Below are positions 3,758 to 44,041 of a stretch of DNA of 49,971 bases, piece after piece; within the stretch, counting starts at the first letter, position 1; the number at the start of each line of letters is the position of its first letter. The notes below the pieces were generated by a model. It was not told where the DNA came from, made no database searches, and saw only the letters and a list, made by a program, of their open reading frames with translations. Source of the DNA: Thermoplasmata archaeon (GTDB lineage Archaea; Thermoplasmatota; Thermoplasmata; Lutacidiplasmatales; UBA184); the NCBI GenBank assembly GCA_028864975.1, contig JAGWLG010000029.1:1-49971 (forward strand), in the 5' to 3' direction. The position numbers and the translations under genes are program-made.

Positions 3758-3789
3758 GCCCTGCCAACTGCAGGGGTACCGTCTACGCT

Positions 3790-3889: not shown

Positions 3890-4008
3890 TTGCACACGGG
3901 TCGAGGGTAATACGCTTGCTGCCGGGTCTTGGAGCGTTTCGCGCGCGTCCGTACGCCTGAGGGAAAGTCGATGGGCTCGGGACAGATGGCCCCCCGTGCT
4001 TCTGAGTA

Positions 4009-24662: not shown

Positions 24663-27600
24663 ATGCGTACGTCTGCCAGATCTATGACCGTTTCCGACCT
24701 CTCGCGACACCTGCCTGTCCCGAGCTCCCTGCATGCCCTGCGGGTCATCGCATTCTGTTCGGTCCTCGTTGGCCTGGTAATCCTCTCGGGCCTTGCAGGG
24801 GCTTTCGCCTCGGCCGCAGCCCCTCAGGAACAGAACCCCCGGGACGGACCGACGATCGCTGAGGAGAAAGGCGCGGCCGTAGGCGCCTCATCCCTCCCTT
24901 CGGCACATGCCGGTGGCGGACCCTCGGATCGCTCCGCGCACACTCCGTCCGCGTTCCGCCACACCGTTCCGCTTTCGGCTTCCGAGGTACCCGCCAGCTC
25001 GGCCAAGCACCCCGTACCTCTCCCTATGGCCCCGCCCTCGACCGTTTCGGTTGGCGCGAGCCCCACACCGTCAGAAGTCGCTCCATCGTCCTCCTCAAGA
25101 TCGCAAGCGCGGGCTGATGGGGTGGCGGTGCCGACCGTGACCCCATCTGTGAGCTGCTCCACTTCTGGGAGCACTCTGCAAGTGACCGTTTCTTCCGGCA
25201 CAGCCTCAGACACCCTCCTTGTGGCGACCAGCGGCGGAGCTTGGGCTATCACGTTCGACGGAAGCGCGGTTTGCGTTGGCGAGAGCTATACGACGTTCCC
25301 GATGATCACCGTAAGCGAGGTACCGACACCAGCGACCCCTACCACGTTCCAACCCGGCACGACGACGGGACTGACCTTTGGTGGAGCGGCAGGGAGCTCC
25401 AACGTGCTGGACCTGTCCGGCGAGTCCTCGGGGCTCACTGTAGCGGTCAACGGCAACTCCGCCACGAATCCTGGCACCGTCACGGGCACCGGTGTGAGCG
25501 ACAGCTTCAGCGGGATCACGACGGTGGACGGTTCCTCGGCCGGTGGCACCACGTTCCAACCCGGCAGTGCTACCGGGGTGACCCTTGTCGGAGCGGCCGG
25601 GAGCTCCAATGTGCTGGACCTCTCGGGCGAATCCACGGGTCTCACCGTAGCGGTGAACGGGGACTCCACCGCGAGCCCGGGCACCGTCACGGGCACTGGC
25701 CTCAGCGACAGCTTCAGTGGGATCACGACCGTGGACGGCTCCTCGGCCGGCGGCACGACGTTCCAACCCGGCACGGCCACGGGAGTGACCTTTGTTGGAC
25801 CGGCTGGGAGTTCCAACGTGTTGGACCTGTCAAATGAGCCCTCCGGTCTCACCGTGACGGTGAACGGTGACTCCACCGCCAGCCCGGGCACTGTCACGGG
25901 CACTGGCCTCAGCGACAGCTTCAGTGGGATCACGACGGTGGACGGCTCTTCCGTCGGTGGCACAACCTTCCAAGCCGGGAGCGCATCCGGGATACTTTTT
26001 GTCGGTCAGGGTGGCAGCAGCACCCTGGACCTTCCCTCTTCGGCCTCCCTCCTCACGGTGGGAGTGAACGGAGACTCCGCCGCTAGCCCGGGTACGCTGA
26101 CGGGCGGCGGCTTGAGCGACAACTTCGAGGGGGTCACCTCCATGGTGGGAAACACCGGTAGTGGGGGGGCCACGTTCCAAGCCGGGGGCGCCACGGGACT
26201 CACCTTCGTCGGCGCGGGGTCGGGTCCAAACTCGTTGTCCCTGGCGACGGAGACGGCGCCTTTCACCGTGGCGATGAACGCCGACACCTCCACCACTCCG
26301 GGCTCGGTCACGGGCTCAGGCGTGAGCGACGCGTTCTACGGGATGAGCTCGGTGACGGGCTCCCCGGGCGGAACCACGTTCCAGCCCGGGACCGCCCCCT
26401 CGGTGTCTCTGATAGGAGTGGGGAGCGCGACCACGCTGGACCTCTCATCGGAACCCTCGGGCCTCACCGTGGCGGTCTCCTCGGGGTCGGGTACTCTGTC
26501 GGGCACGGGGATCAGCGACACCTTCAGCGGCATCAGCACGTTTGTGGGCTCCTCGGCTGGCGGAACGAGGTTCCAGCCTGGGAACGGAGCAGGGATGTCC
26601 TTTGCTGGTCAGGGCGTCGGCAACACGCTCGACCTGTCGAGCGGGCCCTCCGGTCTCACCGTGGCGGTGAACGGGGACTCCACCACGAGTCTGGGTACCG
26701 TCACGGGCACCGGTTTGAGCGACAGCTTCAGCGCGATCACCACAGTGGACGGCTCCTCGGCCGGGGGCACTACGTTCCAACCTGGGAGCGCGACCGGGCT
26801 GACCTTTGTCGGAACGGGGAGTGGCAACGTACTGGACCTGTCGGCGGAGCCTTCCGGTCTCACCGTGGCGATGAACGGGGACTCCTTCACGAACCTGGGA
26901 AGCGTCACAGGCTCGAGCCTGAGCGACAGCTTCAGCGGGGTCACGACAGTGGACGGTTCTTCGTCGGGCGGCACCACATTCCAACCGGGCACGGCGACGG
27001 GAGTGACCTTTGCCGGAGCGGTAGGGAGTACCAACACGCTGGACCTGTTGGCGGACCCTTCCGGTCTCACCGTGGCGGTGAACGGGGACTCCTCCGCGAA
27101 CCCGGGAACCATCACGGGCTCGAGCCTGAGCGACAGCTTCAGCATGGTCACGACAGTGAACGGTTCTTCGGTGGGTGACACGACATTCGTTACCGGAAGT
27201 CTCGGGGGACTCACCTTCAGTGGCCAGGGCACTAGTAACACACTGGACTTCAGTGGGGCTCCGGCCGGAGCGACGGTGACCCTTAGCGGGACCCCCGCTG
27301 CATACTCGGGGACCATCAGTGGTCTCAACCCCGGCGCCATGGGTTCTACCACAGACACCTTCGCCGGGATCCAGTTCTTCGTGCCAGCGTTCTCCACGTC
27401 CACCTCCGTCGCCAGCTCTCTCGACCCTTCGTCCTTCGGACAGGCGGTAGCCTTCACGGCGACCGTCTCCCCGACAGATGGCGGGGGGACCGTCACCTTC
27501 TACGACGGCACCACGGCGATCTGCTCCGCGGTCACCCTTGCCTCGAGCGGCTCGGGCTACCAAGCGACGTGCACCACCTCGTCGCTCGGAGTCGGGACCC

Positions 27601-30600
27601 GCTCGATCACCGCCCAGTACTCGGGCGACACCAACTACGCTGGGTCGACATCGTCCGCGCTCGCCCAGACGGTGGACAAGGGCCCTACCGGGGTGACGAC
27701 CGCGGTCTACGACGCAACCACCGGTAGCCCCTGGTCCGGAACGGAGGTCACCGGTGCCCGGGCCTACGACACCGCATCGCTCTCCGGCGAGCAGCTCGGC
27801 ATCAACCCCACCGGGACTGTGACGTATTCGCTCTATGCCGACGGGACGTGCTCGGGGGCCTCTCTCACGTCAAGCACGGTGGTGCTGTCGGGAGGTACGG
27901 TCCCTCCCAGCGGCCCAAGCCCGCCCTTGGGGGCAGGGGCCTTCGGTTTCACGGCGTCCTACCCAGGTGACACCAACTACGCCTCCTCCACCAGCACTTG
28001 CGAGGCGTTCAACGTGGGTCCATCTCCCTCGACCATCACCCTTGTCCCCTCGCCACTGGTGATCGACCAAGGAGAGGTCGCCACCTTGACGGCGACCGTG
28101 GTCAATCAGTACGGGAGCAGCACTCCCGCTCCGACCGGGACGGTCAGTTTCCTGGCCAACGCCGGAGCCGGTCCCGTGGCGCTCGGAACCTGCTCGCTGA
28201 CGACCGGTAGCTACGGGCATTGCACCCTCAACACCACCGCGATCCCTGCGGGGGGCTACGTGTGCGACGACTATGGCGGAGACAGCAACTACCAGGCCGT
28301 GGGCTACTTCTGCACCTCCGTGCAGACCGTCAATCCGTCCCTCGCCGCCCCGGGCGTTCCCCGGGTGAGCTCCACCCAGCTCGATTCGAGCCAGGTCCGC
28401 GGCCTTTGGGTCAACGGTACGCTCCCCTCCACCGGAACTCCGACGTACTCCTGGCAGTGGCTCATCTCCATCAACCATGGGGCGTTCGGGCCCAGCGCCG
28501 GCATCTGCACCACTGCCTCCGGATCAGGAGCCTCGGCGGGCTCGAAGGTCTCCTGCCAGTTCGCGGGGGGCTATGTCCCCCAGCAGGGGGTGCCCTACCG
28601 CTTCGAGTTGAACGTCACGGACAGCGCTTCCCTGCCGGAGAGCGTCAACTCCGCTCCCTCCCCGCTCGTGAGCGTTGCCGCCGACCTGGTCCCCGGGGCT
28701 CCGACTCCCATCCAGCCCACCCTGGACGCGGGCCAGACGGTCTTGTTGAACGCCCAGGCGTCCCAGGGTTGGGCGCCCTACGTCTATCAGTGGTACATGG
28801 GCCCGTCCCCCGACTGCTCGGTCGATTCCGCGGTGGGAGGGGCCGACCAGGCCGCTCTTTCCGCCAGCCCCTCCGCGAACGTGTACTACTGCTACGGGGT
28901 GTCCGACTCGGCCAATGTGTCGGAGTCCGGGCTTTCCGCGACGGACCTGGTGCTCGTGGACCCTGCGCTCGGTCCGGCCTCGCTCTCAACCTCACGGAGC
29001 GCCCTCGATGTCGGGCAGTTGGTGCTCCTGTCGGTCAGTACGTCGGGAGGGTCGGGGGTCTACCATTACGGCTGGGCCGGACTTCCCCGCGGCTGCGCCA
29101 CCGCGGACACGGCCCAGTTGACCTGCTACCCCTCGGCGGCGGGAGCGTTCTCGGTCAGGGCCTGGACGAACGATACGAACGGAGCCTCGGTTAGCGCAAC
29201 GCTCTGGCTCACAGTTTCCGCCGACCCCACCATCACGACCCCGACCACCCCCAGGATGGACCTCGACGTGGGGCAGAGCACGCCCCTCTCCTTCCTGGCC
29301 ACCAACGGCACCGGACTCTGGTCGATCTTGGCCTGGGCGGGCCTTCCTTCAGGATGCGGGAGCGTCAACGGGACGACCTTGACGTGCGCACCGGGCGTGG
29401 CCGGCACCTACTCCGTGAGCGCTTCGATCACGGACTCCAACGGGATGACGGCCTCCTCCGGGAGCGTCACCCTGATCGTCTCGCCCGCGCTGGTGACCCC
29501 TTCCATCGCCGCCTCCCGGACCACCCTGGATGTGGGCCAGTCCGTCCTTCTGTCCGCTTCGGTCTCGGGAGGGACAGGGAGCTACACGTACACTTGGGGA
29601 CCGCTCCCGGCCGGATGCACGGCCTTCCACGCCGCGTCGTTGACCTGCACCCCCACCTCCGTCGGAGCCGGGAGCTTTGCGACCACCGTGATGGTGACGG
29701 ACGGGAACGGGGCGAGCCTCACCAGCCCCAGCACCACCCTCACGGTTTCCGCGGACCCGACCGTCTCCGCTCCCTCTTCCACGAGGATGAGCCTGGACCT
29801 GGGTCAGGTCGCGGTCCTGTCCGCCACGGCGACGAACGGGACCGGCTTACCCTCCTCCTACGCCTGGGCAGGTCTCCCCACGGGATGCCCCTCGGCCGAT
29901 GCCCCCGCCCTCACCTGTGTTCCCAGCGGGACCGGAACCTACCTGGTCACGGTCTCCATCCAGGATTCGAACGGAATGGGGGTGTCTTCGGCGCCGCTGA
30001 CCCTGATCGTCTCCTCCCGCATGGGATCGCTCGACCTTTCGAGCTCGGTCGCGGCCTTGGATGTGGGGCAGTCCGTCGCCCTCTCGGTCGCGGTCGCAGG
30101 CGGTGCGGCCCCGTACACGTACATCTGGAACGTAGCGTCGTTCCCGACCCAAGGTTGTAGCGGTCTCGGGGCGGTCCTGACGTGTACCGCCGCGCTCGCC
30201 GGACCTGCCACGGTGATGGTCACGGTCACGGACAGCAATGGGGTCAACCTCACCAGCTCTGCGCTAAAGCTGACGGTCTCGGCCCGTCTCATCCCCGGCA
30301 GCATCGCTCTGGACCCCGCGACCCTGGACCTTGGTCAGGCGACGAAGCTGGCGGCGAGCGTGGCGGGTGGATCAGGAGGGCTGACCTATGCTTGGAGCGG
30401 TCTTCCTTCGGGGTGCAGCGCCAGCAGTTCGGTCAATCTCACGTGCACGCCCTCGGTCTCCGGGACCTCGTGGGTGATGGTGGCGGTCACGGACTCGAAC
30501 GAGGCGACCGTGGTCGATGGACCCGTGTCTCTGGTGGTCTCCCCGACCCTGGGGACCGTGAGCGTCTCGGTCAGCGCCACCACCTTGGAGGTCGGAGGCG

Positions 30601-31082
30601 TCGTGAGCTTCACCGCGAGCGTCGTGGGCGGCACGGCCCCGTTCGTCTACAGTTGGAGCGGTCTCCCGACGGGATGCACCACCTTCGACACGCCAACCAT
30701 GACCTGCGAACCGACGGCCACGGGGGTGTACTCGGTCTCGGTCAAGGTCACGGACGCGACGGGAGCGAGCGTGACCTCCTCAGCTCAGTCCGTGACGGTG
30801 ACGAAGGCCCCTGCGCCAGCGGCGACAGGACTCTCGAACGGGCTGGACTGGTCGATCCTCGCGCTGGCGCTCGTCGCCTTGGTCATAGGCCTGATGGGGA
30901 TGTTTCTGGCCCTCCGGAGCAAGGGACCACGAACGGCAGCGAAGGAGAAGGAGGCGAGCAGGGAGGAACGAGGCTCGGACCTGAAGGAGGGTGCCAAGCC
31001 GACCTCGGAAGCGCCCGAGACTTCCAGGGAGGGAGAAGCGGGCGCGGAAGCTGAGTCCCGCGGGGAGATGAGCGAGAGATAG
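24663..31082 (+). CDS. Large membrane-anchored surface protein/adhesin (69-aa repeats, Ig-like domains, C-terminal TM)
   Basis: 2139 aa, Ser/Thr/Gly-rich, with an N-terminal hydrophobic signal, 10 repeats of about 69 aa, Big_3-like domains, 7 W.GLP.GC...LTC.P Ig/PKD-like repeats and a C-terminal TM (WSILALALVALVIGLMGMFLAL) followed by a charged tail. Confidence 0.9.
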   Translation: MRTSARSMTVSDLSRHLPVPSSLHALRVIAFCSVLVGLVILSGLAGAFASAAAPQEQNPRDGPTIAEEKGAAVGASSLPSAHAGGGPSDRSAHTPSAFRHTVPLSASEVPASSAKHPVPLPMAPPSTVSVGASPTPSEVAPSSSSRSQARADGVAVPTVTPSVSCSTSGSTLQVTVSSGTASDTLLVATSGGAWAITFDGSAVCVGESYTTFPMITVSEVPTPATPTTFQPGTTTGLTFGGAAGSSNVLDLSGESSGLTVAVNGNSATNPGTVTGTGVSDSFSGITTVDGSSAGGTTFQPGSATGVTLVGAAGSSNVLDLSGESTGLTVAVNGDSTASPGTVTGTGLSDSFSGITTVDGSSAGGTTFQPGTATGVTFVGPAGSSNVLDLSNEPSGLTVTVNGDSTASPGTVTGTGLSDSFSGITTVDGSSVGGTTFQAGSASGILFVGQGGSSTLDLPSSASLLTVGVNGDSAASPGTLTGGGLSDNFEGVTSMVGNTGSGGATFQAGGATGLTFVGAGSGPNSLSLATETAPFTVAMNADTSTTPGSVTGSGVSDAFYGMSSVTGSPGGTTFQPGTAPSVSLIGVGSATTLDLSSEPSGLTVAVSSGSGTLSGTGISDTFSGISTFVGSSAGGTRFQPGNGAGMSFAGQGVGNTLDLSSGPSGLTVAVNGDSTTSLGTVTGTGLSDSFSAITTVDGSSAGGTTFQPGSATGLTFVGTGSGNVLDLSAEPSGLTVAMNGDSFTNLGSVTGSSLSDSFSGVTTVDGSSSGGTTFQPGTATGVTFAGAVGSTNTLDLLADPSGLTVAVNGDSSANPGTITGSSLSDSFSMVTTVNGSSVGDTTFVTGSLGGLTFSGQGTSNTLDFSGAPAGATVTLSGTPAAYSGTISGLNPGAMGSTTDTFAGIQFFVPAFSTSTSVASSLDPSSFGQAVAFTATVSPTDGGGTVTFYDGTTAICSAVTLASSGSGYQATCTTSSLGVGTRSITAQYSGDTNYAGSTSSALAQTVDKGPTGVTTAVYDATTGSPWSGTEVTGARAYDTASLSGEQLGINPTGTVTYSLYADGTCSGASLTSSTVVLSGGTVPPSGPSPPLGAGAFGFTASYPGDTNYASSTSTCEAFNVGPSPSTITLVPSPLVIDQGEVATLTATVVNQYGSSTPAPTGTVSFLANAGAGPVALGTCSLTTGSYGHCTLNTTAIPAGGYVCDDYGGDSNYQAVGYFCTSVQTVNPSLAAPGVPRVSSTQLDSSQVRGLWVNGTLPSTGTPTYSWQWLISINHGAFGPSAGICTTASGSGASAGSKVSCQFAGGYVPQQGVPYRFELNVTDSASLPESVNSAPSPLVSVAADLVPGAPTPIQPTLDAGQTVLLNAQASQGWAPYVYQWYMGPSPDCSVDSAVGGADQAALSASPSANVYYCYGVSDSANVSESGLSATDLVLVDPALGPASLSTSRSALDVGQLVLLSVSTSGGSGVYHYGWAGLPRGCATADTAQLTCYPSAAGAFSVRAWTNDTNGASVSATLWLTVSADPTITTPTTPRMDLDVGQSTPLSFLATNGTGLWSILAWAGLPSGCGSVNGTTLTCAPGVAGTYSVSASITDSNGMTASSGSVTLIVSPALVTPSIAASRTTLDVGQSVLLSASVSGGTGSYTYTWGPLPAGCTAFHAASLTCTPTSVGAGSFATTVMVTDGNGASLTSPSTTLTVSADPTVSAPSSTRMSLDLGQVAVLSATATNGTGLPSSYAWAGLPTGCPSADAPALTCVPSGTGTYLVTVSIQDSNGMGVSSAPLTLIVSSRMGSLDLSSSVAALDVGQSVALSVAVAGGAAPYTYIWNVASFPTQGCSGLGAVLTCTAALAGPATVMVTVTDSNGVNLTSSALKLTVSARLIPGSIALDPATLDLGQATKLAASVAGGSGGLTYAWSGLPSGCSASSSVNLTCTPSVSGTSWVMVAVTDSNEATVVDGPVSLVVSPTLGTVSVSVSATTLEVGGVVSFTASVVGGTAPFVYSWSGLPTGCTTFDTPTMTCEPTATGVYSVSVKVTDATGASVTSSAQSVTVTKAPAPAATGLSNGLDWSILALALVALVIGLMGMFLALRSKGPRTAAKEKEASREERGSDLKEGAKPTSEAPETSREGEAGAEAESRGEMSER
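25341..27370 (+). repeat. Intragenic tandem repeat, about 207-bp unit, 10 copies
   Basis: The ac(c/g)acgttccaacccgg anchor recurs at about 25341, 25548 and 25755 (207-bp period). There are ten TTFQ-like anchors in the protein. Confidence 0.9.
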
Positions 31083-31156
31083 GGTGCTGGACAGGAGGCC
31101 CGGGATGGCGGAGGTCGCCCGTCAAGCGCGTCCTGGGACCGGCCGCCCTGGCCCCC

Positions 31157-31345
31157 TCAGTGCGAGGCGAAGTGGGCCGTGGCGACACAGCCCGCCCCCG
31201 CGACGCCGAGGAAGAAACCGAAGGTCAGGTCAACGATCTGGTGGGTCTCGAGCCCGCTGACGAGCGTTACGGGGCCCCACACGAGAACGAGTGCGCCAAG
31301 GATGCCGAACTCGAAAGGCGGGACGCGGCGGTGGGAAACCCGCAT
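31157..31345 (-). CDS. Small two-TM membrane protein
   Basis: 62 aa with two hydrophobic segments (FGILGALVLVWGPVTLV; LTFGFFLGVAGAGCV). Confidence 0.55.
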   Translation of the reverse strand: MRVSHRRVPPFEFGILGALVLVWGPVTLVSGLETHQIVDLTFGFFLGVAGAGCVATAHFASH

Positions 31346-31420
31346 GAGACGTCAGAGCCCCTGGAAGTGATGTACCTCGCTCTTCGAGATGAACTCACGA
31401 AAGCGAACCTAGGGCAGGAC

Positions 31421-32473
31421 TTACCCCGACCGAGCCGGGGGGGGTGGGGTAGAGACGGGGGGCGCCGGCCCGGACCACGGGGGAATCCCTCCTCCGGGAG
31501 CGGGGGGGTCCCTGATCCTTCGGAGCGAGTGCGCGAGGACGAGGAGGCCCCCGAGCACGACCGCCGGACCTGCCGCTTCGACCAAGAAGCTCTCTAGGTA
31601 CAGGAGTCCATTCACTCCCGGTGGTCCCAGGACCGTGTGGTACCAAAGGACATCCAACGCCAGCAGCACCACCCAGCCCCCCGTGACGATGAGGACACCC
31701 CGTAGAACACCTGTTAGCTCGGCCCGAGGCGCGACGGCCCTAAGGGCCCGCAGAAGCGTCTCGCCTGCCACGAGCGTTCCCAGTATCGCCATGACATAGG
31801 CAATCACAGCGAGGACGAGAAAGATGGACTCGAGAACGGCGTCGGCGGAGGACTGGCCCCAACTGATCGCGGTCTGCCAGAGGAAGTCGAAAACGAAAGG
31901 GAGGCGGGAAAGCTCGAGGATCGAGAAGCTCGCGATCCCCAGGGCCACGGACGTGTAGAAAGTACGGAGCCCGCGCAGGGGGGGCGCCATCGGCCCTGTC
32001 ATGCGCCGTTCAGACGCGATGCCCTCCAGGAGGCTGTAACGCCATAGGGCGGCGGCTGCGACCTCCAGGGAGAGGGCGGCAGCTGTGAAGGGCACGGGCA
32101 GCAAGTTGGCCTCGACCAAACCATTGATGCCGGTCCAGTAGCCGGGCGTGGAGAGCCACACCCAGAAGACGAGCAAGGAGACGATCTCGAGCAGAGTCGC
32201 GATGATGGTCAAGCGGACGGCGGTGATCGTCCTCGCGACCGTCCTGGAGGGGGGCTCCCCCAGGCGAGCGTACGGGTCGGCCCGCGGGGCGCGGAGCAGA
32301 AGGAGGGGAAGGCCTATCGCGAAAAGGATCGCGCCCCAAAACAGAGGCGGGCTACCAAGCTCTTCGCAAGCCCCCCAGATTGTGGGACAGACGACCATGA
32401 AGGTCTCGATGACACCGACGATGAGCAGGAGAAGGCCGAGCACCACCAGGGCCGCACCGATCAGCCGACGCAC
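31421..32473 (-). CDS. Multi-pass membrane protein with Pro-rich C-terminus
   Basis: 350 aa with about 8 hydrophobic segments; the N-terminal hairpin has a CPTIWGAC loop. Confidence 0.75.
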   Translation of the reverse strand: MRRLIGAALVVLGLLLLIVGVIETFMVVCPTIWGACEELGSPPLFWGAILFAIGLPLLLLRAPRADPYARLGEPPSRTVARTITAVRLTIIATLLEIVSLLVFWVWLSTPGYWTGINGLVEANLLPVPFTAAALSLEVAAAALWRYSLLEGIASERRMTGPMAPPLRGLRTFYTSVALGIASFSILELSRLPFVFDFLWQTAISWGQSSADAVLESIFLVLAVIAYVMAILGTLVAGETLLRALRAVAPRAELTGVLRGVLIVTGGWVVLLALDVLWYHTVLGPPGVNGLLYLESFLVEAAGPAVVLGGLLVLAHSLRRIRDPPAPGGGIPPWSGPAPPVSTPPPPARSG

Positions 32474-32527
32474 GCGAAGGGATCGTTCTTCGTGAGTAAG
32501 AACCTCGCGCCGACCGGGGGGACGGGG

Positions 32528-32974
32528 TCATCCTTTGTTCAGAGCGCGTCGGACGGCGGTGAGCCTTCCGGGCGTGAACTCGAGCCTCGGGAGGTCCGCA
32601 AGGCCTACCCAGCGGTACTCGGTGTGCTCTGCCGGGTCTACACGGACCGAGGGCCGCTCACTTACCCGACTGAAGAACACGGTCTCCCACACCCGCCGCT
32701 CGGGCCACGGGTAGGTCTGGAGCGTGGTGCCTGCGGGTCGGTCCTCCAATGGATTGCCTTCTTGGAGCGGCTCGGCCGTTTCGATGTCGAGCCCGGTTTC
32801 CTCTCGCAGCTCGCGCAAGGCACCTTCGAGGGGAGTTTCGCCCCCCTCGAGACGTCCTCCCGGCAGATCCCAGCATCCGGCCCAGACGAGATCGGTGAGC
32901 ACGCGGCGTAGGATGAGCACGGAGCGGTCGTGGACCACGGCCACCGAGGCGACCCGGACGGTCGAGGCGCTCAC
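32528..32974 (-). CDS. NUDIX hydrolase (MutT-like)
   Basis: Canonical Nudix box GGRLEGGETPLEGALRELREETGL, with WDLPGG upstream and an EHTEYRW segment. The likely start is GTG 32974. Confidence 0.9.
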   Translation of the reverse strand: MSASTVRVASVAVVHDRSVLILRRVLTDLVWAGCWDLPGGRLEGGETPLEGALRELREETGLDIETAEPLQEGNPLEDRPAGTTLQTYPWPERRVWETVFFSRVSERPSVRVDPAEHTEYRWVGLADLPRLEFTPGRLTAVRRALNKG

Positions 32975-32975
32975 A

Positions 32976-33362
32976 CTAGGAGGAGAGCACCCCTCGCACA
33001 TCAACCCCCGCGGCGGGAGGGACGGGGGGCGCGGTCACTGCGGCGAGTCCCGGGGGGCGCGGCGCACGCCGCGGGGCTCTCAGGTTCAAGCGGAGTGCGG
33101 GACATGGACCGGCTGTGAGGATGGGCCCGGGGGTCGCGGGCGACGGGGGCCCGCAGGGTGGGGAGGCGAAGATGAAGAGCAACCCCCCCAGTGCCAAGGC
33201 GATAGCGCCTACTCCGGGCATCCACTGGCCCTAGTCACATCCGCCGCGGGCAACCCCGTTGAGGCATGGGATGAGGCTCTCGATCCCCGCTGGAACAAGA
33301 AAGATGCCACCCAACCCGAGAAGCACTACACCGAGGTCCCGGATCGCGTCATGTCCGCGCAT
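32976..33362 (-). pseudogene. Two-TM membrane protein gene interrupted by an in-frame TAG
   Basis: One frame reads MRGHDAIRDLGVVLLGLGGIFLVPAGIESLIPCLNGVARGGCD*GQWMPGVGAIALALGGLLFIFA..., with TAG at 33231-33233 between two TM helices. Confidence 0.5.
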
Positions 33363-33625
33363 GTGAAGCGGAAAGCCCCCGAGGCTTTGGCCCTTCCTCA
33401 GGGGGGACCATCCCTGGGGGAGCCTCCGTGGCGGGGGCCCGGGCCGCCGCGTCTCGGCCAGCCGTAAGAGATGCTCAAGGGAGCACGCGAGAGTCGGACT
33501 CCAATCGAGGTGGGAGCGGGTGGACGCGGGCGGACCCGGGGGGGTTCCCTCGGCCTTCCCGAGCTGCCCTTCCCCACACCCCACTGACCGCGAGGGAAGG
33601 CCGAGGGCGCGTGGGGGGGGTGCCC

Positions 33626-34072
33626 TCAGTAGATCCAGCGCTGACTGGGGGGGTGCCATGGAACGGGGGTTGGAAGCCTCGTGCGAAGGGCCCGCATGAC
33701 CCGAGGGGATACTCGGACCCGGGCTCCCCCGCGGAAGACGACCTCGTAGTACGCGGGGTCGTTCGGGTCGAGCACGCCCACCTTCTCAACGGCCTCCCAA
33801 GGCTCCTTGGTCCGTCGATGGAGCAGGTGCATCGGGCCCCAGTCGAGGACGAACCCGCCTTGGGTGATGGCGTAGCGTGGGGGGAGCGTCCTTTGGGTGC
33901 CGAGGACCCAGACCGAGTATCCGATGATCACGACGGGCCAGAGGACGAACCCGAAGGTGACCCCGAAGACGAGGATAAGCGCGAAGAGAGCGGAAAAAAA
34001 GAACAGGCCGTTGCCCGCGAAGAACCGGACCACGTAGGAGTCGAACTCCGCGTTGACCAGGAGCTCGGCCAC
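33626..34072 (-). CDS. Membrane protein, two TM helices plus small soluble (PH-like?) domain
   Basis: Hydrophobic LFFFSALFALILVFGVTFGFVLWPVVIIGYSVWVL is followed by a beta-rich tail (RYAITQGGFVL...EPWEAVEKV...YEVVF). The start was re-assigned to GTG 34072. Confidence 0.6.
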   Translation of the reverse strand: MAELLVNAEFDSYVVRFFAGNGLFFFSALFALILVFGVTFGFVLWPVVIIGYSVWVLGTQRTLPPRYAITQGGFVLDWGPMHLLHRRTKEPWEAVEKVGVLDPNDPAYYEVVFRGGARVRVSPRVMRALRTRLPTPVPWHPPSQRWIY

Positions 34073-34209
34073 GCAGGTGGAGGCACGAGGTGACGGAAGA
34101 ACTCTGCGACGCGGGCGACCTTCGGGGGGCCGAGCTTGATGACCTCGCGCGCGCTGTAGGGTACTCGACGGGAGCCCCGTAGGCGCGGTTTTGCGGGCTC
34201 CCGACAACC

Positions 34210-34797
34210 ATGAGCGCAAGCTCCATCAGCGACCCTCGGTCCTCACCGACCGCCGTCGTGGGGGCCTACCGACGTCCGCCACGTCGCCAACGAGGCTGGT
34301 GGGTGGGCTCGCTAGCGGTGGCGACACTGGTCGCCCTCGGAACGGTGTATTATCTGAACGAGCAGTCCACCTTCGGCACCCTTCCGTGCGGGCCTGGCGG
34401 CCAGTTTGGGGCCGTACTTGGTATTTCGTCGATCGGAGGGACAGAGGCCTTTGTCAATGTGAGCTACCAGTTCGGCTGCTCGTTGAGCGCGAAGGAGGCC
34501 ACCCTGAACCTGACGTCCACGCTGCACCCCGCGATCTTCCTCTGCGGGCACGCCGGGGGCGCGGGGGACCCCTACAACGAGTCCGTCGGTGGAGTACGCG
34601 GGGGGTTTTGGACGGCCGGCCAAGTGTGGAGCCTTCACCTCGTCGGGGGGCCCGGCGGGACGGTCTGTGGGAGTCCGCCGGACCTGTCGTCGTGCGGGGA
34701 CAACGTGACCGTGACCATTCGAAACGCCGAGATGGCCGGTACGGTCCTGTTCCAGGTAACCCTGCCTGGGCTAGTACCTATCTCGGGTTGTCCCTAG
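34210..34797 (+). CDS. Membrane-anchored exported protein, possibly archaeal pilin-like
   Basis: Basic RRPPRRQRG is followed by a hydrophobic helix and a Cys/Gly-rich beta domain containing N-X-S/T sequons (NVS, NLT, NES, NVT). Confidence 0.65.
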   Translation: MSASSISDPRSSPTAVVGAYRRPPRRQRGWWVGSLAVATLVALGTVYYLNEQSTFGTLPCGPGGQFGAVLGISSIGGTEAFVNVSYQFGCSLSAKEATLNLTSTLHPAIFLCGHAGGAGDPYNESVGGVRGGFWTAGQVWSLHLVGGPGGTVCGSPPDLSSCGDNVTVTIRNAEMAGTVLFQVTLPGLVPISGCP

Positions 34798-34892
34798 GTT
34801 GGTGGTCGGTGTGCGGCGCACCCCGAATGCGGGGGAGGGGGCGTCCGCGGTGGGGACTCGGTGCGCATCCGCCAGGCGACCGCGAACGCCGC

Positions 34893-35420
34893 TCAGTTCG
34901 TTTTCACCGCGGGTCCGACCATGATCTTGCCCGTAGCATTACGCTGGGAGGGGCGGAGGCTCGACCTCCGCGCCAGCAGGTGGCCGACGACCGCGAGCAC
35001 GCATCCGATCGTGAGGAGGGTCCACCCAATGGACGCGGGAGGCAGGAGCACGCGGCCCGCTTCAAAGGGGTCGTGGAGAGCCCACACGGCTTGCCACCCA
35101 AGGACCCCACTGGAACCGAGGGCCCCCACGATGGAGGCTCTTCGGTAGGCCGGACCCCGGCGGAAAGGGAGCGCGGTCATGGCTCCAAGCGCCACGAGGG
35201 GCACACCGAAGAGGGGGGAGAGGACCGAGGCGAGCGGGCACGTCCCAAGCAGAAAGCATTCGGTCGGTGCCTCGAGCACCATCAGGAGGACCGAGGACGC
35301 GACGACCAGCACGCCTCCCGCGAGGGTTAGGAGCCAGGGACGACCTCGCTCGGGGGACCCGCGGGAAGGGTCCAGGGACGGAGACGCTCCCACCTCCATG
35401 GCAAGAGCGACCAGGGGCAC
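34893..35420 (-). CDS. Four-TM membrane protein
   Basis: Four hydrophobic segments; the first loop contains CFLLGTC. Confidence 0.65.
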   Translation of the reverse strand: MPLVALAMEVGASPSLDPSRGSPERGRPWLLTLAGGVLVVASSVLLMVLEAPTECFLLGTCPLASVLSPLFGVPLVALGAMTALPFRRGPAYRRASIVGALGSSGVLGWQAVWALHDPFEAGRVLLPPASIGWTLLTIGCVLAVVGHLLARRSSLRPSQRNATGKIMVGPAVKTN

Positions 35421-35578
35421 CGGTCAGCATCAATGTTCGGGGAGAAGTGGAGCAGGACACGTAGCGAGGCGGGTCGAACGACGGTGCCCGGGGGAGCCGA
35501 CCGAGGACCAAGGGCGAGCGCGGGTAACGCCTCCCGCGTCGGGTTCTTGCCGTTGAGCGTCATGGTCCATGCGTTGCC

Positions 35579-35803
35579 ATGACGCTCACGTTGCCCGCGA
35601 AATGCGACGAGTGTGGCGCGTCGACCGAAGTCTCGGTCACCATTGGGTATCAGGGGCGGCTCCGGCCGGGCTGGCTGATGCTCAGGGATGGGGGAGGGGT
35701 CGGGGCCCACGCCGGGGTCGTGTGGTGCTCGAAGGAGTGCCAGCGGAAGGGTTTGGCCCGTCGTCGTGTGATGGAGGGGCCCCCGGCGGCGGACCGTGCG
35801 TGA
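35579..35803 (+). CDS. Small putative Zn-binding protein
   Basis: 74 aa with CDEC near the N-terminus and WCSKEC near the C-terminus. Confidence 0.55.
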   Translation: MTLTLPAKCDECGASTEVSVTIGYQGRLRPGWLMLRDGGGVGAHAGVVWCSKECQRKGLARRRVMEGPPAADRA

Positions 35804-35940
35804 GGCTCCTCGAGGGCCCGACCGCCTATATGCGAGGTGAGGAGGGTCGGGAGCAGTTCTCCCGGCCCCAGAGCGCCGTGCGCGAGGCAGGCGGGGAAGG
35901 GGCCACATATTCATGGCATGGCGGAGCATTGGCGGAGTCC

Positions 35941-36408
35941 GTGAAGCCTCTCCGACGGCGCGACGGGGCCATCGGCCTCGGGGTCCTGAACACGTGGGTC
36001 GCGGGGGCGATGGTCTGGACCTGGTGGCAAGGGGGAGTGGGATACTCGACCCCCGACGACCTCGCATTCTACCTTGGCCTCGCCCCCCTGATCGTTGGCT
36101 CCCTCGCGGGATACGTCGGGGCGCGGTGGCGGACCCACTGGGTGGCGCTTGCTTCGGGTCTGACGATGGGTCTGCTCGCGGCGGCCACCGTGCCCACGGC
36201 TGAGGCCCTAGTTGCGGGCCCAAAGGTCGGAGCGCTCGCCGCGGGATGGGCGGCCCTCCTCTGCTCCATGCCGCTCGAGGACCCGCGGTCGGGCTCCGCG
36301 AAAGCCCGGCCGGCGTCGCTCGGGGAAGACCGCGTGGGCGACCTCCCGAAACTCGCGGACCGACCGGCTGGGGCAGACGAGCGAAGCGACCGGGCAATGG
36401 GTGGATAG
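35941..36408 (+). CDS. Four-TM membrane protein
   Basis: From GTG 35941 (MKPLRRRDGAIGLGVLNTWVAGAMVWTWW...); four hydrophobic segments and a charged tail. Confidence 0.6.
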   Translation: MKPLRRRDGAIGLGVLNTWVAGAMVWTWWQGGVGYSTPDDLAFYLGLAPLIVGSLAGYVGARWRTHWVALASGLTMGLLAAATVPTAEALVAGPKVGALAAGWAALLCSMPLEDPRSGSAKARPASLGEDRVGDLPKLADRPAGADERSDRAMGG

Positions 36409-36754
36409 AGAGGGGGGTCCGAGTGACCCGACCGGGGCCCGCGATCGCGGCGGAGGGTGGGCGGGAAAGGGGAGAGGCGGCCTCTGTGGGGGGACCTGGG
36501 GTCGCGGCGCGAAGGGGGGGCGTGGGTGGGCGACGGAGGGCCCTTGCGCGGCGGTGTCGATGCTAGGGGCGTGAGCGGCACAGAAACGAGCGAGGGGTCA
36601 TCGGCGACCATGAAGCCGCCGACTGAGAGGCGGCAGAGGCGAAAGCTGCTGACCCTCGGTGGCGTCGAACTGACGCCGGTGCTCATCGCCTCCGGTCCAG
36701 GGCGGCACCATTATGGTACACAGGCACCCATGAGGTTCGACACGAGGACCGTGG

Positions 36755-38083
36755 TTGCCGTTCTGGGAGAGGAAGCGCAGCCCGGCGAGTAGCCGCCCTG
36801 CAACGCCACGGGCTCTCAAGCCCCCTGTCCAGCGTCAACTGGCCGATGCCTCCCGCGACGACGTCGGCTTCGGAAGGGTGCGGTTGGGACCAGCGACTCG
36901 GCGAGCGCTGGGAGTCGCCCCGCTGGAATACGTGGAGGTGATCGGCCGACGGGCCACCGTGGCAATAGTCCACGAGAGGCAAGGAACGCGCGTTGATGAG
37001 GCAACGGCCGTCACAGAGCGCGCGATCCAACGGAACGCGGGAGCCAAGGTGGGGGAGATTGTCCAGCTTCGTAAGGTGGAGCCTCTGGCCGCCGAGAGGA
37101 TCACGATCGCGCCTATCTACTCGGGGGCACCCAGGATGGATCTGGGGCCCGGACTAGAGTCGTTCGTCGCGAAGGCTTTGTCGCGCCGGCCTTTCGCTCC
37201 TGGAGACATCTTCGTTGTTCCAGGGGTCTTCCTCATGGGAGGTTCTCTGCTCTTCCGCGTGATGGGGACCGCTCCGCTTGGCTCGGTCGTCATAGGACCG
37301 AACTCCCTCGTCACGATCATGAACGAGGCGGTCCCTGAGATGGTGGTCGGCACTGTTCTGCAGACGAACCCAAGAGATCCGAACTCACCTCCGGAGCTCG
37401 TCGACGCACAGGGGATGGCGACGGAGCTGGAACTCTCGCTCCGCGCCTACCGGCTTCTGGCCCACTTCGGGGAGTCGTCCACTCGGAACGCCGCGTTGGC
37501 CTGGCTTTCGTCGGCCGAGGCGCGTCTCCGCCCCATTCGAGCGCGGATGGCCATTGAGGCTGAGTGGCACGAGGCGGACGAACGGTGGGAGCGGGACCAT
37601 CCGAAACCCCCCCACGAGCCGGAATTCGACAGGGCATGGCTCGCGCGCGAGGCGGCAGGCCGGGTGTGGACGCAGTCCCATCGATCACCCAAGACCTCTC
37701 CGGATCACCTTCGAGGGAGGAGGGCGGCGCTCCAGGCGATGGAGACCTGGGCGCTGATGAACCCCGCCCCGAAGATCGGCGAAGACCTCTACGATGAGGA
37801 GGTCGCGGCGAGGGCCGGGCGAGCCATGGTCGCCGCCGTACGCTTCACCCTAGAAGATCAACCCTGGCTCGAGGAGGCCCTTCAATGGAGAGAAACTCAC
37901 CCAGAGCCTCCCCTGCCCCCCGAAGGGTCGGCCGCTCCTTGCCTGGAGTGGCACCTGGCCTTTCATGCGTGGCAAGATGCCCATCCCCATCCTCACGAGA
38001 GCACAGACGAGAGAGCGGACCGTCTGGAACGGCAGGCGTCCTGCGAGGCGCTTTGGAGGCGGCTCGCGGCGAAGTACCCCTAG
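36755..38083 (+). CDS. Cdc48/VAT N-domain fused to an unrelated helical, Trp/Pro-rich domain (no AAA ATPase)
   Basis: The segment ADASRDDVGFGRVRL...RNAGAKVGEIVQLRKV...RITIAPI...VAKALSRRPF..GD...VPG..L.GGSLLFRV follows the archaeal VAT-N pattern. No Walker A/B motif follows it. Confidence 0.75.
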   Translation: MPFWERKRSPASSRPATPRALKPPVQRQLADASRDDVGFGRVRLGPATRRALGVAPLEYVEVIGRRATVAIVHERQGTRVDEATAVTERAIQRNAGAKVGEIVQLRKVEPLAAERITIAPIYSGAPRMDLGPGLESFVAKALSRRPFAPGDIFVVPGVFLMGGSLLFRVMGTAPLGSVVIGPNSLVTIMNEAVPEMVVGTVLQTNPRDPNSPPELVDAQGMATELELSLRAYRLLAHFGESSTRNAALAWLSSAEARLRPIRARMAIEAEWHEADERWERDHPKPPHEPEFDRAWLAREAAGRVWTQSHRSPKTSPDHLRGRRAALQAMETWALMNPAPKIGEDLYDEEVAARAGRAMVAAVRFTLEDQPWLEEALQWRETHPEPPLPPEGSAAPCLEWHLAFHAWQDAHPHPHESTDERADRLERQASCEALWRRLAAKYP

Positions 38084-38953: not shown

Positions 38954-39550
38954 TCACCCCGGTGGGCGGCCCTTCGTGCGTTCCTCGCGGGCTCCTGGCA
39001 TGATCTCCCGCTCCAGGGCCCTTAGGAGGTCCGCTACGTCGAAGGTCTTCGCCCGTTCGCGCGCGTAGGTCCAGTCGATCGAGTCCTTGAACCGTGCTCC
39101 CAGTAGGGCCGCATGCTCCAGGTCGCCGCGCTGGCGCCAATGTTTGGCCGAAGCCAGTCTCTTGACGAGAAGGTCCTCGATGGCCGCGAGACGGACCGGT
39201 CCGTAGGGGGTCGTGATGATGCGCGTTCGGGTCGACGACCCCGTGTAGTAGGTCCCTACCAAGTCCACCGCGAGCTTCCAGTCGTCTCGGACCCATAGGC
39301 GCCCTTCCTTTCCGAACCCCCATCGACGAAGCGAGGAGGCGATCCGGTCCTTGTCAGGAACGACCAAGTCCACATCCCCGGACACGTAGGCTCCACGAGT
39401 GTACAGCTCGATCGCCGAGCCGCCCACCACGAGCACCGCATCTTCGCTGAGCCCGGTGTCGCTCGACAACAGCGCACAAAAGGTGAGGAGCCGGCGTGTC
39501 GCGTCCTGCTCCGCGAGCAGGATAGCTTCGACCTCCCGCTTCTCTCTCAT
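38954..39550 (-). CDS. Pol-beta-superfamily nucleotidyltransferase (DUF6036/AbiEii-like)
   Basis: VVGGSAIELY...SGDVDLVV (GG..DxD signature) and IEDLLVKRL; coupled by an ATGA overlap to the upstream HTH gene. Confidence 0.75.
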   Translation of the reverse strand: MREKREVEAILLAEQDATRRLLTFCALLSSDTGLSEDAVLVVGGSAIELYTRGAYVSGDVDLVVPDKDRIASSLRRWGFGKEGRLWVRDDWKLAVDLVGTYYTGSSTRTRIITTPYGPVRLAAIEDLLVKRLASAKHWRQRGDLEHAALLGARFKDSIDWTYARERAKTFDVADLLRALEREIMPGAREERTKGRPPG

Positions 39551-40023
39551 CGGGACGTCCGTCGCGACATTCGGAGACCCATGCGCGACAGGGTCCTGTC
39601 CTTGGACCTCGGGCGGAAGAACTCCGACCGGTTGGGAACGTTCTCCGGGTTGGCCGGAAAGTCTTCGAGCGAGAGCGCACGGACGATCTCCGTCGCCTCG
39701 GGGTTCGAACGGCTGCGCGAGTCGATCTCGGCCATCCAGGACGCCTCCGAGGAGATACGGACCCGCTTTCGGAGGAGCTCGGCCACGTCGGGGTCCGCGA
39801 GAGAGAATCCGCGCGAGCCGTTCTCGGTCGAGCTCACTCGCACGACCTTGGCCTCCATGAGCCGAGCGAGTTCGGTGTAGACCTTGGGCGGGTTGACATC
39901 GAGCGTCCGTGCGACCCGGTAGGCGGTCAGGGGCAGGTTCGAGTTCGCGAGGGTCGCGAGAACCCCCAATCGGGTCGAGCTACCGAACACGCAGGCCAGA
40001 CCGGGATCGAGGCTCTCGAGCAT
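39547..40023 (-). CDS. Winged-HTH DNA-binding protein
   Basis: TRLGVLATLA...LTAYRVARTLDVNPPKVYTELARLMEAKVVRV...RGFSL. The likely leaderless start is ATG 40023, 25 bp below TTTATA. Confidence 0.75.
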   Translation of the reverse strand: MLESLDPGLACVFGSSTRLGVLATLANSNLPLTAYRVARTLDVNPPKVYTELARLMEAKVVRVSSTENGSRGFSLADPDVAELLRKRVRISSEASWMAEIDSRSRSNPEATEIVRALSLEDFPANPENVPNRSEFFRPRSKDRTLSRMGLRMSRRTSR

Positions 40024-40031
40024 CAAGAGAG

Positions 40032-40073
40032 ATACCCCCATAAGGGGTATAAAGAATACCCTATTGGGATATT
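40032..40073 (-). promoter_or_regulatory. TATA box (TTTATA at 40053-40048) flanked by two related inverted repeats
   Basis: An AT-rich patch in a high-GC background containing ATACCCC-N5-GGGGTAT (40032-40050) and AATACCC-N4-GGGATATT (40055-40073). Confidence 0.6.
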
Positions 40074-42781: not shown

Positions 42782-43006
42782 GTGAGAGGAAGATCTCTCA
42801 TGAACGCTTGAAGGAGCCACCTCAATCCGTTGGGCTCCCCCCGGTCCACTTCCCCTGGACCCCGGCCCTTGGTCGCTTCGGGGGCGCGGCCCGGTAGGGG
42901 ACCGAGGGACGGGCGGCAGTCCCCGGCCCGAGTGGACATGTAGCCTTCCGCCATGCGGCGGAAGCAGCAAACGCGGCGTCTCTTGTCCACCCCTCGGAGA
43001 CGCCGC

Positions 43007-44041
43007 ATGTGGAAGACCACCTTCGTCGGGCTTGACGTGAGCCGAAAGACCATCATGGCCACCGCGGTGGACGAGCTCGGTCACCGCATCGATCAACGGA
43101 AGCTCACGGCCAGGGACCCCGAGCTCGTCGAGTTCCTTGCGGGGCTACCGGGTGAGAAGAAGGTGGTCCTGGAGGCCTGCAACGTCTGGGAGCACGTCTA
43201 CGATGCGGCCGCCTCGACCGGTGCCCAGGTGAAGCTGGCCAACCCCCTGAAAACCAGAATCATCACCGAGGCGTCGCTTAAGACGGACCGAGTGGATTCC
43301 GAGGCCTTGGCCATGCTCGCACGACTCGACGCGGTGGCGGAGGCCTACGCGCCCACTCCGGAGCAGCGGGCCCTCCGGCACCTCGTACGCGAGCGGACCT
43401 TCTACTGGAAGAAGTGGATGGACGTCGTGAATCACACCTACTCCATCCTGCTCCAACGAGGGGTCGAGTACGACTCCGGGATCCTGACGAAGTGCACGAT
43501 GCGCGACGAACTGCGCACCCACGGGATCCCTGAGGTGGACCGAGGGCTCGACGCACTTGCGAAGCTCGAGGAGATCGCCAAGCCCCTCGAGAAGGAGATC
43601 CACGCCGCCTTCATCAGGTCGAAGGAGGCCCAGCTGCTCGCCTCGATACCCGGTATCGGCGAGGTGACCGCCGTGACCCTGGTGGCCTTCCTCTGTCCGA
43701 TCGAACGATTTCACAGCCTGGAGGCCGTGGTGAAGTACAGCGGGCTCTGTCCCTCGGTCCGCCAGTCCGGCGAGAACAGCTACAACGGACCCCTCGTCTG
43801 GGACGCGCAGGCCGTCCTCAAATTCGTGCTCATCGAGGCCCAGTGGAGGACCCGCCAGAACGAGAAGCGTGGCGACGTGGCGAGGGTCGGGAAGCGCGTC
43901 GCCCGTCGCGGCGCCGCCAACGACGGAGCTGTGGCTGCGGCCCGTACGCTCGTTCGGATCTGCGCGGCGGTCCTCCGCCGAGGGACCCCTTACCAGCCTC
44001 ACGCTCCTGGGTCGCTGAGCCGCCAAGTCCTCCCTGCGTGA
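43007..44041 (+). mobile_element. IS110-family transposase (DEDD recombinase); element ends not determined
   Basis: FVGLDVS, VVLEAC and KTDRVDS give the RuvC-like DEDD residues; SIPGIGEVTA (HhH) and YSGLCPSVRQSG (conserved Ser) are also present. The start is ATG 43007. Confidence 0.93.

What the first reader, a model, noticed from the sequence alone, without database searches (positions are those of the whole stretch)
36755..38083. Cdc48/VAT N-domain without ATPase, fused to a novel W-x3-[HN]P-x-P repeat domain
Seen: residues about 25-190 follow the two-lobed VAT/Cdc48 N-domain pattern. The remaining about 250 aa have no Walker motifs and contain four spaced motifs: WERDHPKPP, WALMNPAP, WRETHPEPP and WQDAHPHP. 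Known: N-domains are the substrate- and adaptor-binding modules of Cdc48/VAT unfoldases. Inference: a stand-alone adaptor, decoy or chaperone that could redirect or inhibit the host Cdc48-proteasome pathway, located in an accessory island next to toxin-antitoxin genes.
Basis: partly seen in the sequence, partly recalled or inferred. Interest (0 to 1): 0.7.

Follow-up and report, generated by a model that had tools for sequence, protein, structure and literature searches.

The report
ATPase-less Cdc48 N-domain, orphan helical domain
This is a real, conserved gene of an uncultured Thermoplasmata archaeon in which a copy of the substrate-binding head of the cell's own Cdc48 unfolding machine has lost the motor and gained a tryptophan-rich helical domain unlike anything described; it is probably a binding or scaffold protein, and its role is untested.

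Summary
It has a bona fide Cdc48/VAT N-domain: both Pfam models score above their cut-offs and the predicted fold matches VAT-N. It has no AAA module. The remaining ~225 aa form an all-helical domain carrying the repeated W-x3-[HN]-P motif, whose fuller form is W-x6-W-x3-HP-x-P.

It is not a decayed one-off. The same genome has a full-length paralogue (44% identity, one gap). Two sister species have 442-aa orthologues, one of them syntenic next to TauE. Three metagenomic proteins consist of the C-domain alone. dN/dS between the two orthologues is 0.34.

A tree places the N-domain inside this family's own Cdc48 clade. It therefore arose by duplication of the host cdc48 5' end, cut at the N-D1 linker, and then evolved much faster. 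The Nc lobe is kept (79% of Cdc48-invariant columns); the Nn lobe is not (39%).

The C-domain folds confidently (pLDDT 93) but matches no Pfam, PDB or Atlas entry. Its distribution is very narrow: one genus among about 580 Thermoplasmata genomes searched.

The toxin-antitoxin neighbourhood is not conserved. Adaptor, holdase or decoy function remains inference. The scan had already flagged the paralogue independently (e1-5722996).

The parts
36755..38083 (+). Whole gene: 442 codons plus stop, TTG start. A GAGGA Shine-Dalgarno-like site lies 7-11 nt upstream and an ATTATGG TATA-like element about 45 nt upstream.
   Evidence: The start M-P-[FL]-W-x-R is shared by all four fused family members, all with non-ATG starts.
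36755..36829 (+). N-terminal extension, residues 1-25. It is basic and Pro-rich (pI 12), carries the conserved PFW motif, is absent from Cdc48 and is predicted disordered.
36842..37081 (+). Nn lobe (CDC48_N, double-psi barrel), residues 30-109. It is strongly diverged from Cdc48.
37148..37333 (+). Nc lobe (CDC48_2, beta-clam), residues 132-193. It is 77-87% identical to the host Cdc48 in 30-residue windows, while third codon positions are saturated.
37343..37405 (+). Acidic linker, residues 197-217, low pLDDT. Homology to Cdc48 ends here, at the position of the N-D1 linker.
37406..38080 (+). Orphan C-domain, residues 218-442. It is a seven-helix bundle rich in Trp, His and Pro, and it ends in Y-P.
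37586..37612 (+). Motif 1, WERDHPKPP (W278), preceded by W271 (W-x6-W).
37748..37771 (+). Motif 2, WALMNPAP (W332).
37886..37912 (+). Motif 3, WRETHPEPP (W378), preceded by W371.
37970..37993 (+). Motif 4, WQDAHPHP (W406), preceded by W399.

Best explanation
The gene encodes a non-enzymatic binding or scaffold protein. It was born when the 5' end of this lineage's own cdc48 was duplicated, cut at the N-D1 linker, and joined to a Trp-zipper-like helical repeat domain. Three things are shown: the N-domain identity and fold, its origin inside the host family's Cdc48 clade, and the conservation of both halves. The rest is inferred. The protein keeps the Nc (beta-clam) lobe almost unchanged and has let the Nn lobe drift. 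It therefore probably still binds whatever the Nc face of Cdc48's N-domain binds, without being able to unfold anything. The rigid helical bundle, whose helices are capped by W-x3-HP-x-PP, would serve as a platform for a second contact or for self-association. The most likely role is ATP-independent substrate holding, delivery or competition in the Cdc48/PAN-20S protein quality-control network of this archaeon. This is an archaeal counterpart in logic, not in ancestry, of eukaryotic Ufd1.
For: The N-domain is real. There is no AAA module.

Family members: a paralogue in the same genome at 44% identity end to end with one gap; 442-aa orthologues in two of three other species of the genus; and three stand-alone C-domain proteins with no N-domain upstream.

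Selection: dN/dS is 0.34 overall, 0.32 for the N-part and 0.44 for the C-part.

Origin: the four fused N-domains form a 100/100 clade nested in family-f1 Cdc48, sister to the g1+g7 Cdc48 with 100/97 support. Their stem is 0.66 and their tips 0.04-0.6, against 0.05 or less for g1 Cdc48 tips.

Lobe asymmetry: 79% of Cdc48-invariant columns are kept in the Nc lobe and 39% in the Nn lobe. Third-position identity is about 0.45-0.55, so this reflects selection and not gene conversion.

C-domain: it folds at pLDDT 93.4 and pTM 0.83 from only 7 sequences. It has 30 invariant columns, including 8 Trp and 4 His.

Host pathway: the host has Cdc48 ending in IYR, PAN, and 20S alpha and beta subunits.

Precedents: isolated VAT-N has chaperone-like activity, and the Ufd1 UT3 domain shares the N-domain architecture (PMC4192671, its refs 131 and 132).
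Against: No partner gene is conserved next to any of the four copies, so nothing ties it to Cdc48 or the proteasome except its ancestry. The Nc-lobe columns that are kept are largely Gly, Pro and hydrophobic residues, so they may be structural and not a binding face. The C-domain has no recognisable relative to suggest an activity. One species of the genus lacks the family, so it is dispensable. Earlier notes of this scan on ATPase-less Cdc48-N fusions in Asgard archaea concluded that some work with partners unrelated to Cdc48.
Confidence: 0.4

Rival explanations
1. The Cdc48-type N-domain has been co-opted as a generic protein- or peptide-binding module for a lineage-specific job unrelated to Cdc48 or the proteasome. 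The C-domain, which also exists on its own, would carry the real function, for example metal or ligand binding through its invariant His and Trp residues.
For: Stand-alone C-domain proteins exist in more distant organisms, whose neighbouring genes are only 30-47% identical to this genome. The Nn lobe has lost most Cdc48-invariant charged residues. There are four invariant His residues and an HPHPH cluster. Earlier scan notes on Asgard N-domain-vWA proteins reached a similar conclusion (unchecked here).
Against: The Nc lobe stays 77-87% identical to the host Cdc48 despite saturated synonymous sites, which is hard to explain without a shared ligand or a shared structural need. No metal-binding family was matched: DinB reached E 0.21 in 1 of 7 members.
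Confidence: 0.3
2. The C-domain is an ATP-independent 20S-proteasome docking module. Its strictly conserved C-terminal x-Y-[PG] would act like an HbYX/GQYL tail, and the helical bundle would be analogous to PA28 or Bpa/PafE. The fused N-domain would then deliver substrates to the 20S without a motor, or block access of PAN and Cdc48.
For: All 7 family members end exactly one residue after an invariant Tyr, and position -3 is L, L or M in three of them. The host Cdc48 ends in IYR. That helical-bundle activators with C-terminal Tyr motifs are known comes from my own knowledge and was not checked here.
Against: Position -3 is K or R in four of the seven. In the model the Tyr lies directly at the end of the last helix and not on a flexible tail. 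W-x6-Y-P also reads as one more copy of the helix-capping motif. No 20S binding test was run.
Confidence: 0.07
3. It is cargo of a mobile or defence island and works with the adjacent toxin-antitoxin genes.
For: In this window it is convergent with a PIN_2/RHH pair and lies near a wHTH plus NTase-like pair, an IS110 and a methyltransferase. The same arrangement, with an IS66, is found in a second assembly.
Against: The orthologues in G001 and G002 lie beside TauE/DUF1634 with no PIN or TA genes. The window's copy is at the same ancestral site, with about 12 kb inserted in between. The paralogue has a different context. There is no PADLOC or PHROG match.
Confidence: 0.04
4. It is a decaying cdc48 fragment read through into non-coding DNA.
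For: None beyond the missing ATPase, a dN/dS higher than that of neighbouring genes, and a TTG start.
Against: There are four intact copies of the same length with a single gap, conserved motifs, a conserved start and a conserved stop position. dN/dS is 0.34, both halves have coding-type GC3, and the C-domain folds confidently.
Confidence: 0.02

Closest known systems
N-domain of VAT/Cdc48/p97 (Pfam CDC48_N + CDC48_2; PDB 1cz4)
   Same: Both Pfam models score above their cut-offs. The two-lobed fold matches. Identity to the host's own Cdc48 N-domain is 55%. The phylogeny nests it within the family's Cdc48 clade.
   Different: There are no D1 or D2 AAA rings and no HbYX tail of the Cdc48 type. 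A 25-aa basic N-terminal extension has been added. The Nn lobe is strongly diverged, and evolution is much faster.
Eukaryotic Ufd1 (UT3 domain), the Cdc48 substrate-recruiting cofactor
   Same: It is an ATPase-less protein whose N-terminal domain has the Cdc48 N-domain architecture and which is followed by a different C-terminal part (PMC4192671). This is the only characterised precedent for the logic proposed here.
   Different: There is no sequence match to UFD1 (no Pfam hit). The origin is independent and recent, from an archaeal cdc48. The C-part is a folded helical bundle and not a disordered tail with an SHP/BS1 motif. Binding to Cdc48 has not been shown.
Other ATPase-less Cdc48-N proteins: a 184-aa stand-alone N-domain in the sister species G003 (P0087), many short hits in the representative library, and the Asgard N-vWA and N-Zn-ribbon proteins noted earlier in this scan
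   Same: All have a Cdc48-type N-domain without a motor, and the theme recurs in archaea.
   Different: None of them carries this C-domain. The G003 protein arose by a separate duplication at a different locus.
Helical-bundle proteasome activators with C-terminal Tyr motifs (PA28/PA26, Bpa/PafE), recalled from memory
   Same: They are all-helical bundles, and this protein has an invariant penultimate Tyr at the exact C-terminus.
   Different: No fold or sequence match was found. There is no flexible tail, and position -3 is often K or R. This is a lead only.

Membership tests
Cdc48/VAT N-domain (CDC48_N + CDC48_2) | Both Pfam HMMs at or above their gathering scores | tested here: met
   39.5 bits against a cut-off of 35.1, and 36.2 bits against 22.4
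Cdc48/VAT N-domain (CDC48_N + CDC48_2) | Two-lobed fold: a double-psi barrel plus a beta-clam | tested here: met
   AF2 pLDDT is about 90 over residues 25-195. The top Foldseek match is VAT-N, 1cz4 (E 9.8e-14, TM 0.74, rmsd 3.3 over 172 columns), followed by many p97-N chains.
CDC48 family AAA ATPase (TIGR01243) | Whole-protein score above the cut-off, and two AAA modules | tested here: not met
   60.2 bits against a cut-off of 802.65, with only profile positions 4-168 matched. There is no PF00004 hit at E<=1.
Ufd1-type Cdc48 adaptor | Match to the UFD1 family | tested here: not met
   No UFD1 hit in the Pfam scan at E<=1
Ufd1-type Cdc48 adaptor | Physical binding to Cdc48 | not testable with these tools
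   It needs a pull-down or a structure. The single complex prediction gave no verdict and is listed only under Tried and rejected.
HbYX/GQYL-type proteasome binders | Penultimate Tyr at the free C-terminus | tested here: met
   All 7 of 7 members end in Y-[PG]
HbYX/GQYL-type proteasome binders | Hydrophobic residue at -3 and a flexible tail | tested here: inconclusive
   Position -3 is L, L, M, K, K, R, R across the seven members. In the model the Tyr directly follows the last helix.
HbYX/GQYL-type proteasome binders | Binding to the 20S alpha ring | not tested
Toxin-antitoxin or anti-phage defence component | Match to a defence family, or conserved linkage to TA genes | tested here: not met
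   PADLOC gave only noise (Cas12g, E 0.03). The linkage is absent in G001, G002 and at the paralogue.

The most novel reading that the evidence does not exclude
The orphan W-x6-W-x3-HPxP helical domain is a docking module for Cdc48 or the 20S proteasome. The fused protein would then be the first archaeal, ATP-independent cofactor or competitor of the Cdc48-proteasome machine: an independently evolved Ufd1/Bpa-like device, caught soon after its birth from the host's own cdc48.
Probability: 0.12. Interest if true: 0.8.

Novelty: new variant of a known kind. Interest (0 to 1): 0.45.

Why it matters
To my knowledge, no characterised Cdc48 cofactor is known in archaea. Here a lineage has recently detached the recognition head of its own Cdc48 and kept it under selection on a new, confidently folding scaffold. 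If the protein does touch Cdc48 or the 20S, it offers a simple system for asking what the archaeal N-domain recognises and how adaptors such as Ufd1 can arise. Independently of function, the C-domain is a clean new domain family: about 225 aa, Trp-rich, with helix caps of the form W-x3-HP-x-PP and no fold match. It would be worth a Pfam entry and a structure. The significance is limited by its very narrow distribution: one genus of uncultured Thermoplasmata plus three metagenomic singletons.

Tried and rejected
**Complex prediction.** I paired the host Cdc48 N-domain (alignment A5) with the C-domain (A3). The verdict was 'no answer', with scores of 0.00 and 0.00. This is evidence for neither binding nor its absence.

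**Sequence and profile searches of the C-domain.**
- The word-based homologue searches, by region and with the profile, returned only the protein itself, P0085 and P0104.
- The Pfam scan of all 7 members gave only DinB (E 0.21) and Ins134_P3_kin_N (E 0.69), each in one member.
- The PDB sequence profile search gave only INO80 at E 0.38.
- The ESM Atlas feature search returned nothing usable.
- PHROGs and PADLOC gave nothing meaningful.

**Fold searches of the C-domain.**
- Foldseek against PDB gave a best E of 0.16 (14-3-3, TM 0.14).
- VIA-align wide gave a best Z of 8.1. The hits were generic bundles, below the helical-bundle noise level stated by the tool.
- The Atlas fold search gave TM of 0.42 or less by query.

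**Searches of wider sequence collections.**
- With alignment A4, the GTDB genomes gave only G001 and G002, and the JGI metagenomes gave nothing.

**Origin of the C-domain.**
- I tested whether it arose by frame-shifted reading of cdc48 or of another gene in the genome. tblastn against the whole genome found only the two known copies.
- A tree of the seven C-domains is an unresolved star. It cannot say whether the stand-alone forms are ancestral or derived.

**Gene conversion between the Nc lobe and cdc48.** This was rejected because third codon positions are saturated.

**Literature.** A full-text search for stand-alone archaeal Cdc48 N-domains found no paper.

Full report
**What is there.** The window is high-GC DNA (about 68%) from an uncultured Thermoplasmata archaeon. 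Two lines place it there. The best N-domain matches are proteins annotated 'CDC48 family AAA ATPase [Thermoplasmata archaeon]'. The two orthologous loci lie in MAGs titled 'Thermoplasmata archaeon'.

The ORF at 36755..38083(+) is 442 codons long and starts with TTG. Its codon-position GC content is that of a coding sequence in both halves (GC3 0.73 and 0.76). A GAGGA motif lies 7-11 nt upstream of the start.

The N-domain assignment rests on several results:
- Pfam CDC48_N matches residues 30-109 and CDC48_2 matches residues 132-193, both above their gathering scores. No AAA family appears at E<=1.
- TIGR01243 matches only through its first 168 positions.
- An AlphaFold2 model built on a 22-row alignment has mean pLDDT 88.6. 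Its N-part is most similar to the NMR structure of VAT-N, 1cz4 (E 9.8e-14, TM 0.74), followed by dozens of p97 N-domain chains.

**It is a family, not a relic.** All three fail.

1. It is not a one-off.
   - The same genome has a second copy on contig C124. The two align end to end at 44% identity with a single one-residue gap.
   - Two of the three other species of the genus each have a 442-aa orthologue.
   - All four proteins begin M-P-[FL]-W-x-R from a non-ATG start codon, and all stop right after Y-[PG].
2. The C-part has homologues.
   - An exhaustive HMMER search of 1.8 billion representatives found three further proteins of 229-257 aa (P0084, P0085, P0104). These consist of the C-domain only.
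   - On their contigs there is no N-domain upstream in any frame.
   - Their neighbouring genes are only 30-47% identical to this genome's genes, so they come from more distant organisms.
3. There is purifying selection. Between the G001 and G002 orthologues, dN/dS is 0.34 overall, 0.32 for the N-part and 0.44 for the C-part. That is purifying but relaxed compared with the adjacent TauE gene at 0.05.

The family is very rare.
- With a profile of the C-domain it was found in 3 of 180 genomes of the GTDB family, all in one genus, and in no other genus in a 401-genome sample of the class.
- A pattern scan of all GTDB species genomes found only G001 and G002, and a scan of JGI metagenomes found nothing.

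**Origin of the N-domain.** I built a maximum-likelihood tree of 35 N-domains.
- The four fused N-domains form one clade with 100/100 support.
- That clade nests inside the Cdc48 N-domains of this GTDB family. It is sister to the Cdc48 of genera g1 and g7, with 100/97 support.
- Its stem branch is 0.66 and its terminal branches are 0.04-0.6, against 0.05 or less for the g1 Cdc48 tips.

The gene therefore arose by duplication of the lineage's own cdc48, followed by a large rate increase. Homology to Cdc48 runs through the last strand of the Nc lobe (E171 and E175 of Cdc48 are kept) and stops where the N-D1 linker begins.

The divergence is uneven between the two lobes.
- Of 34 near-invariant Cdc48 columns in the Nn lobe, on average 39% are kept in the fused proteins. 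Most of those lost are charged surface residues.
- Of 32 such columns in the Nc lobe, 79% are kept.
- In the window's copy the Nc lobe is 77-87% identical to the host Cdc48 in 30-residue windows. Third codon positions are only about 45-55% identical, so this is selection and not recent gene conversion.

A 184-aa stand-alone N-domain in the fourth species of the genus (P0087) is a separate duplication at a different locus. Shedding the motor has therefore happened at least twice in this genus.

**The C-domain.**
- Seven sequences suffice for a confident model (pLDDT 93.4, pTM 0.83) of seven helices.
- Six of the seven helices end in W-x3-[HN]-P, often followed by x-P-P. Three of them carry the fuller W-x6-W-x3-HP-x-P. 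The i/i+7 spacing of the Trp pair puts both residues on one helix face.
- The last helix ends W-x6-Y-P at the C-terminus.
- The motif count is far beyond what composition alone would give.
- The alignment has 30 invariant columns, including eight Trp and four His.
- Nothing known resembles it. See Tried and rejected for the Pfam, PDB-sequence, Foldseek, VIA-align, Atlas, PHROG and PADLOC results.
- It is not a frame-shifted reading of cdc48 or of any other part of the genome.
- A tree of the seven C-domains is unresolved. I cannot say whether the stand-alone forms are ancestral modules that were captured or fused genes that lost the N-part.

**Context.**
- In this window the gene is convergent with a PIN_2/RHH_12 pair. 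It lies near a wHTH plus NTase-like pair, a methyltransferase, an alpha/beta hydrolase and an IS110.
- A second assembly of the same species carries the identical protein and the same toxin-antitoxin genes, with an IS66 in place of the IS110.
- In G001 and G002 the orthologue lies directly beside TauE and a DUF1634 gene, with no TA genes downstream.
- In the window those two genes are at 23141-24402. About 12 kb has therefore been inserted between them and the gene: a 2139-aa surface protein, a NUDIX gene and small membrane proteins.
- The paralogue has yet another neighbourhood.

No partner gene is conserved. The gene is monocistronic, and the TA association is incidental.

**How it most likely works.**

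Shown: it is an ATPase-less Cdc48 N-domain paralogue under selection, with a preserved Nc lobe, fused to a rigid orphan helical domain. The host has Cdc48 (740 aa, ending in IYR), PAN, one canonical alpha and two beta proteasome subunits.

Inferred: without a motor it can only bind. The preserved Nc lobe suggests that it still recognises something Cdc48's N-domain recognises. The helical domain would provide a second contact or self-association.

There are two precedents for motor-less N-domain function. Isolated VAT-N has chaperone-like activity, and the Ufd1 UT3 domain shares the Cdc48 N-domain architecture and recruits substrates. Both are cited in PMC4192671.

I therefore commit to an ATP-independent holdase, adaptor or competitor in the Cdc48/PAN-20S network, at about 0.4.

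The main rival, at about 0.3, is that the N-domain fold was simply re-used for an unrelated lineage-specific job centred on the C-domain.

A more adventurous reading, at about 0.07, starts from the invariant penultimate Tyr at the exact C-terminus of all seven proteins and treats it as a proteasome-docking tail. Against it, position -3 is Lys or Arg in four of the seven, the Tyr is not on a flexible tail, and the motif also reads as one more helix cap.

**Novelty and score.** ATPase-less Cdc48-N proteins are not new as a class. Examples are Ufd1, many uncharacterised database entries and several Asgard cases already noted in this scan (unchecked here). The paralogue on C124 was flagged independently by this scan with the same motif reading (e1-5722996).

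Three things are new: this domain combination, the C-domain itself, and the clear evidence that it was born recently from the host's own cdc48.

I rate it a new variant of a known kind, with interest 0.45. It is a tidy and testable case. However, it is confined to one uncultured genus, has no conserved partners, and has no functional evidence.

Noticed in passing
G000:C59:80805-81641 (-), locus L055: A divergent proteasome-alpha-like protein (PF00227, 67 bits) in a 279-aa frame. It has a roughly 90-aa N-terminal extension that looks RHH/CopG-like. It is additional to the canonical alpha (C75) and the two beta subunits.
   Followed up: no
window 24663-36750: Compared with the sister species G001 and G002, about 12 kb is inserted between TauE/DUF1634 (23141-24402) and the Cdc48-N gene. 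It holds a 2139-aa Big_3_5/PKD surface protein, a NUDIX gene and small membrane proteins.
   Followed up: partly
window 35800-36750: A roughly 950-bp G-rich stretch (GC skew about +0.14) directly upstream of the gene, with no convincing ORF in either strand.
   Followed up: no
G003:C78:110871-111392 (+), locus L051:6866-7393: A 184-aa stand-alone Cdc48 N-domain protein (P0087) in the one species of the genus that lacks the fused family. The tree shows it arose by an independent duplication of cdc48.
   Followed up: partly
G000:C73:55331-56872 (+), loci L062/L063: A second double-AAA (type II) protein in a 1263-aa open frame, with a long N-terminal region of unknown nature.
   Followed up: no
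window 38954-40041 (-): A 198-aa protein with only a faint AbiEii-like match (E 0.017), overlapping by 4 bp a 164-aa wHTH protein with a Csa3/TrmB-like HTH. This may be a type IV TA-like pair next to the PIN_2/RHH_12 pair.
   Followed up: partly
window 3784-3891 (-): A TPP riboswitch (70.9 bits) upstream of the 406-aa gene at 2537-3757.
   Followed up: no
window 42953-44041 (+) vs L058:4520-5965: Two assemblies of the same species differ downstream of the methyltransferase: an IS110 plus an alpha/beta hydrolase here, and an IS66 in GCA_028866665.1. This marks an active insertion hot spot.
   Followed up: no
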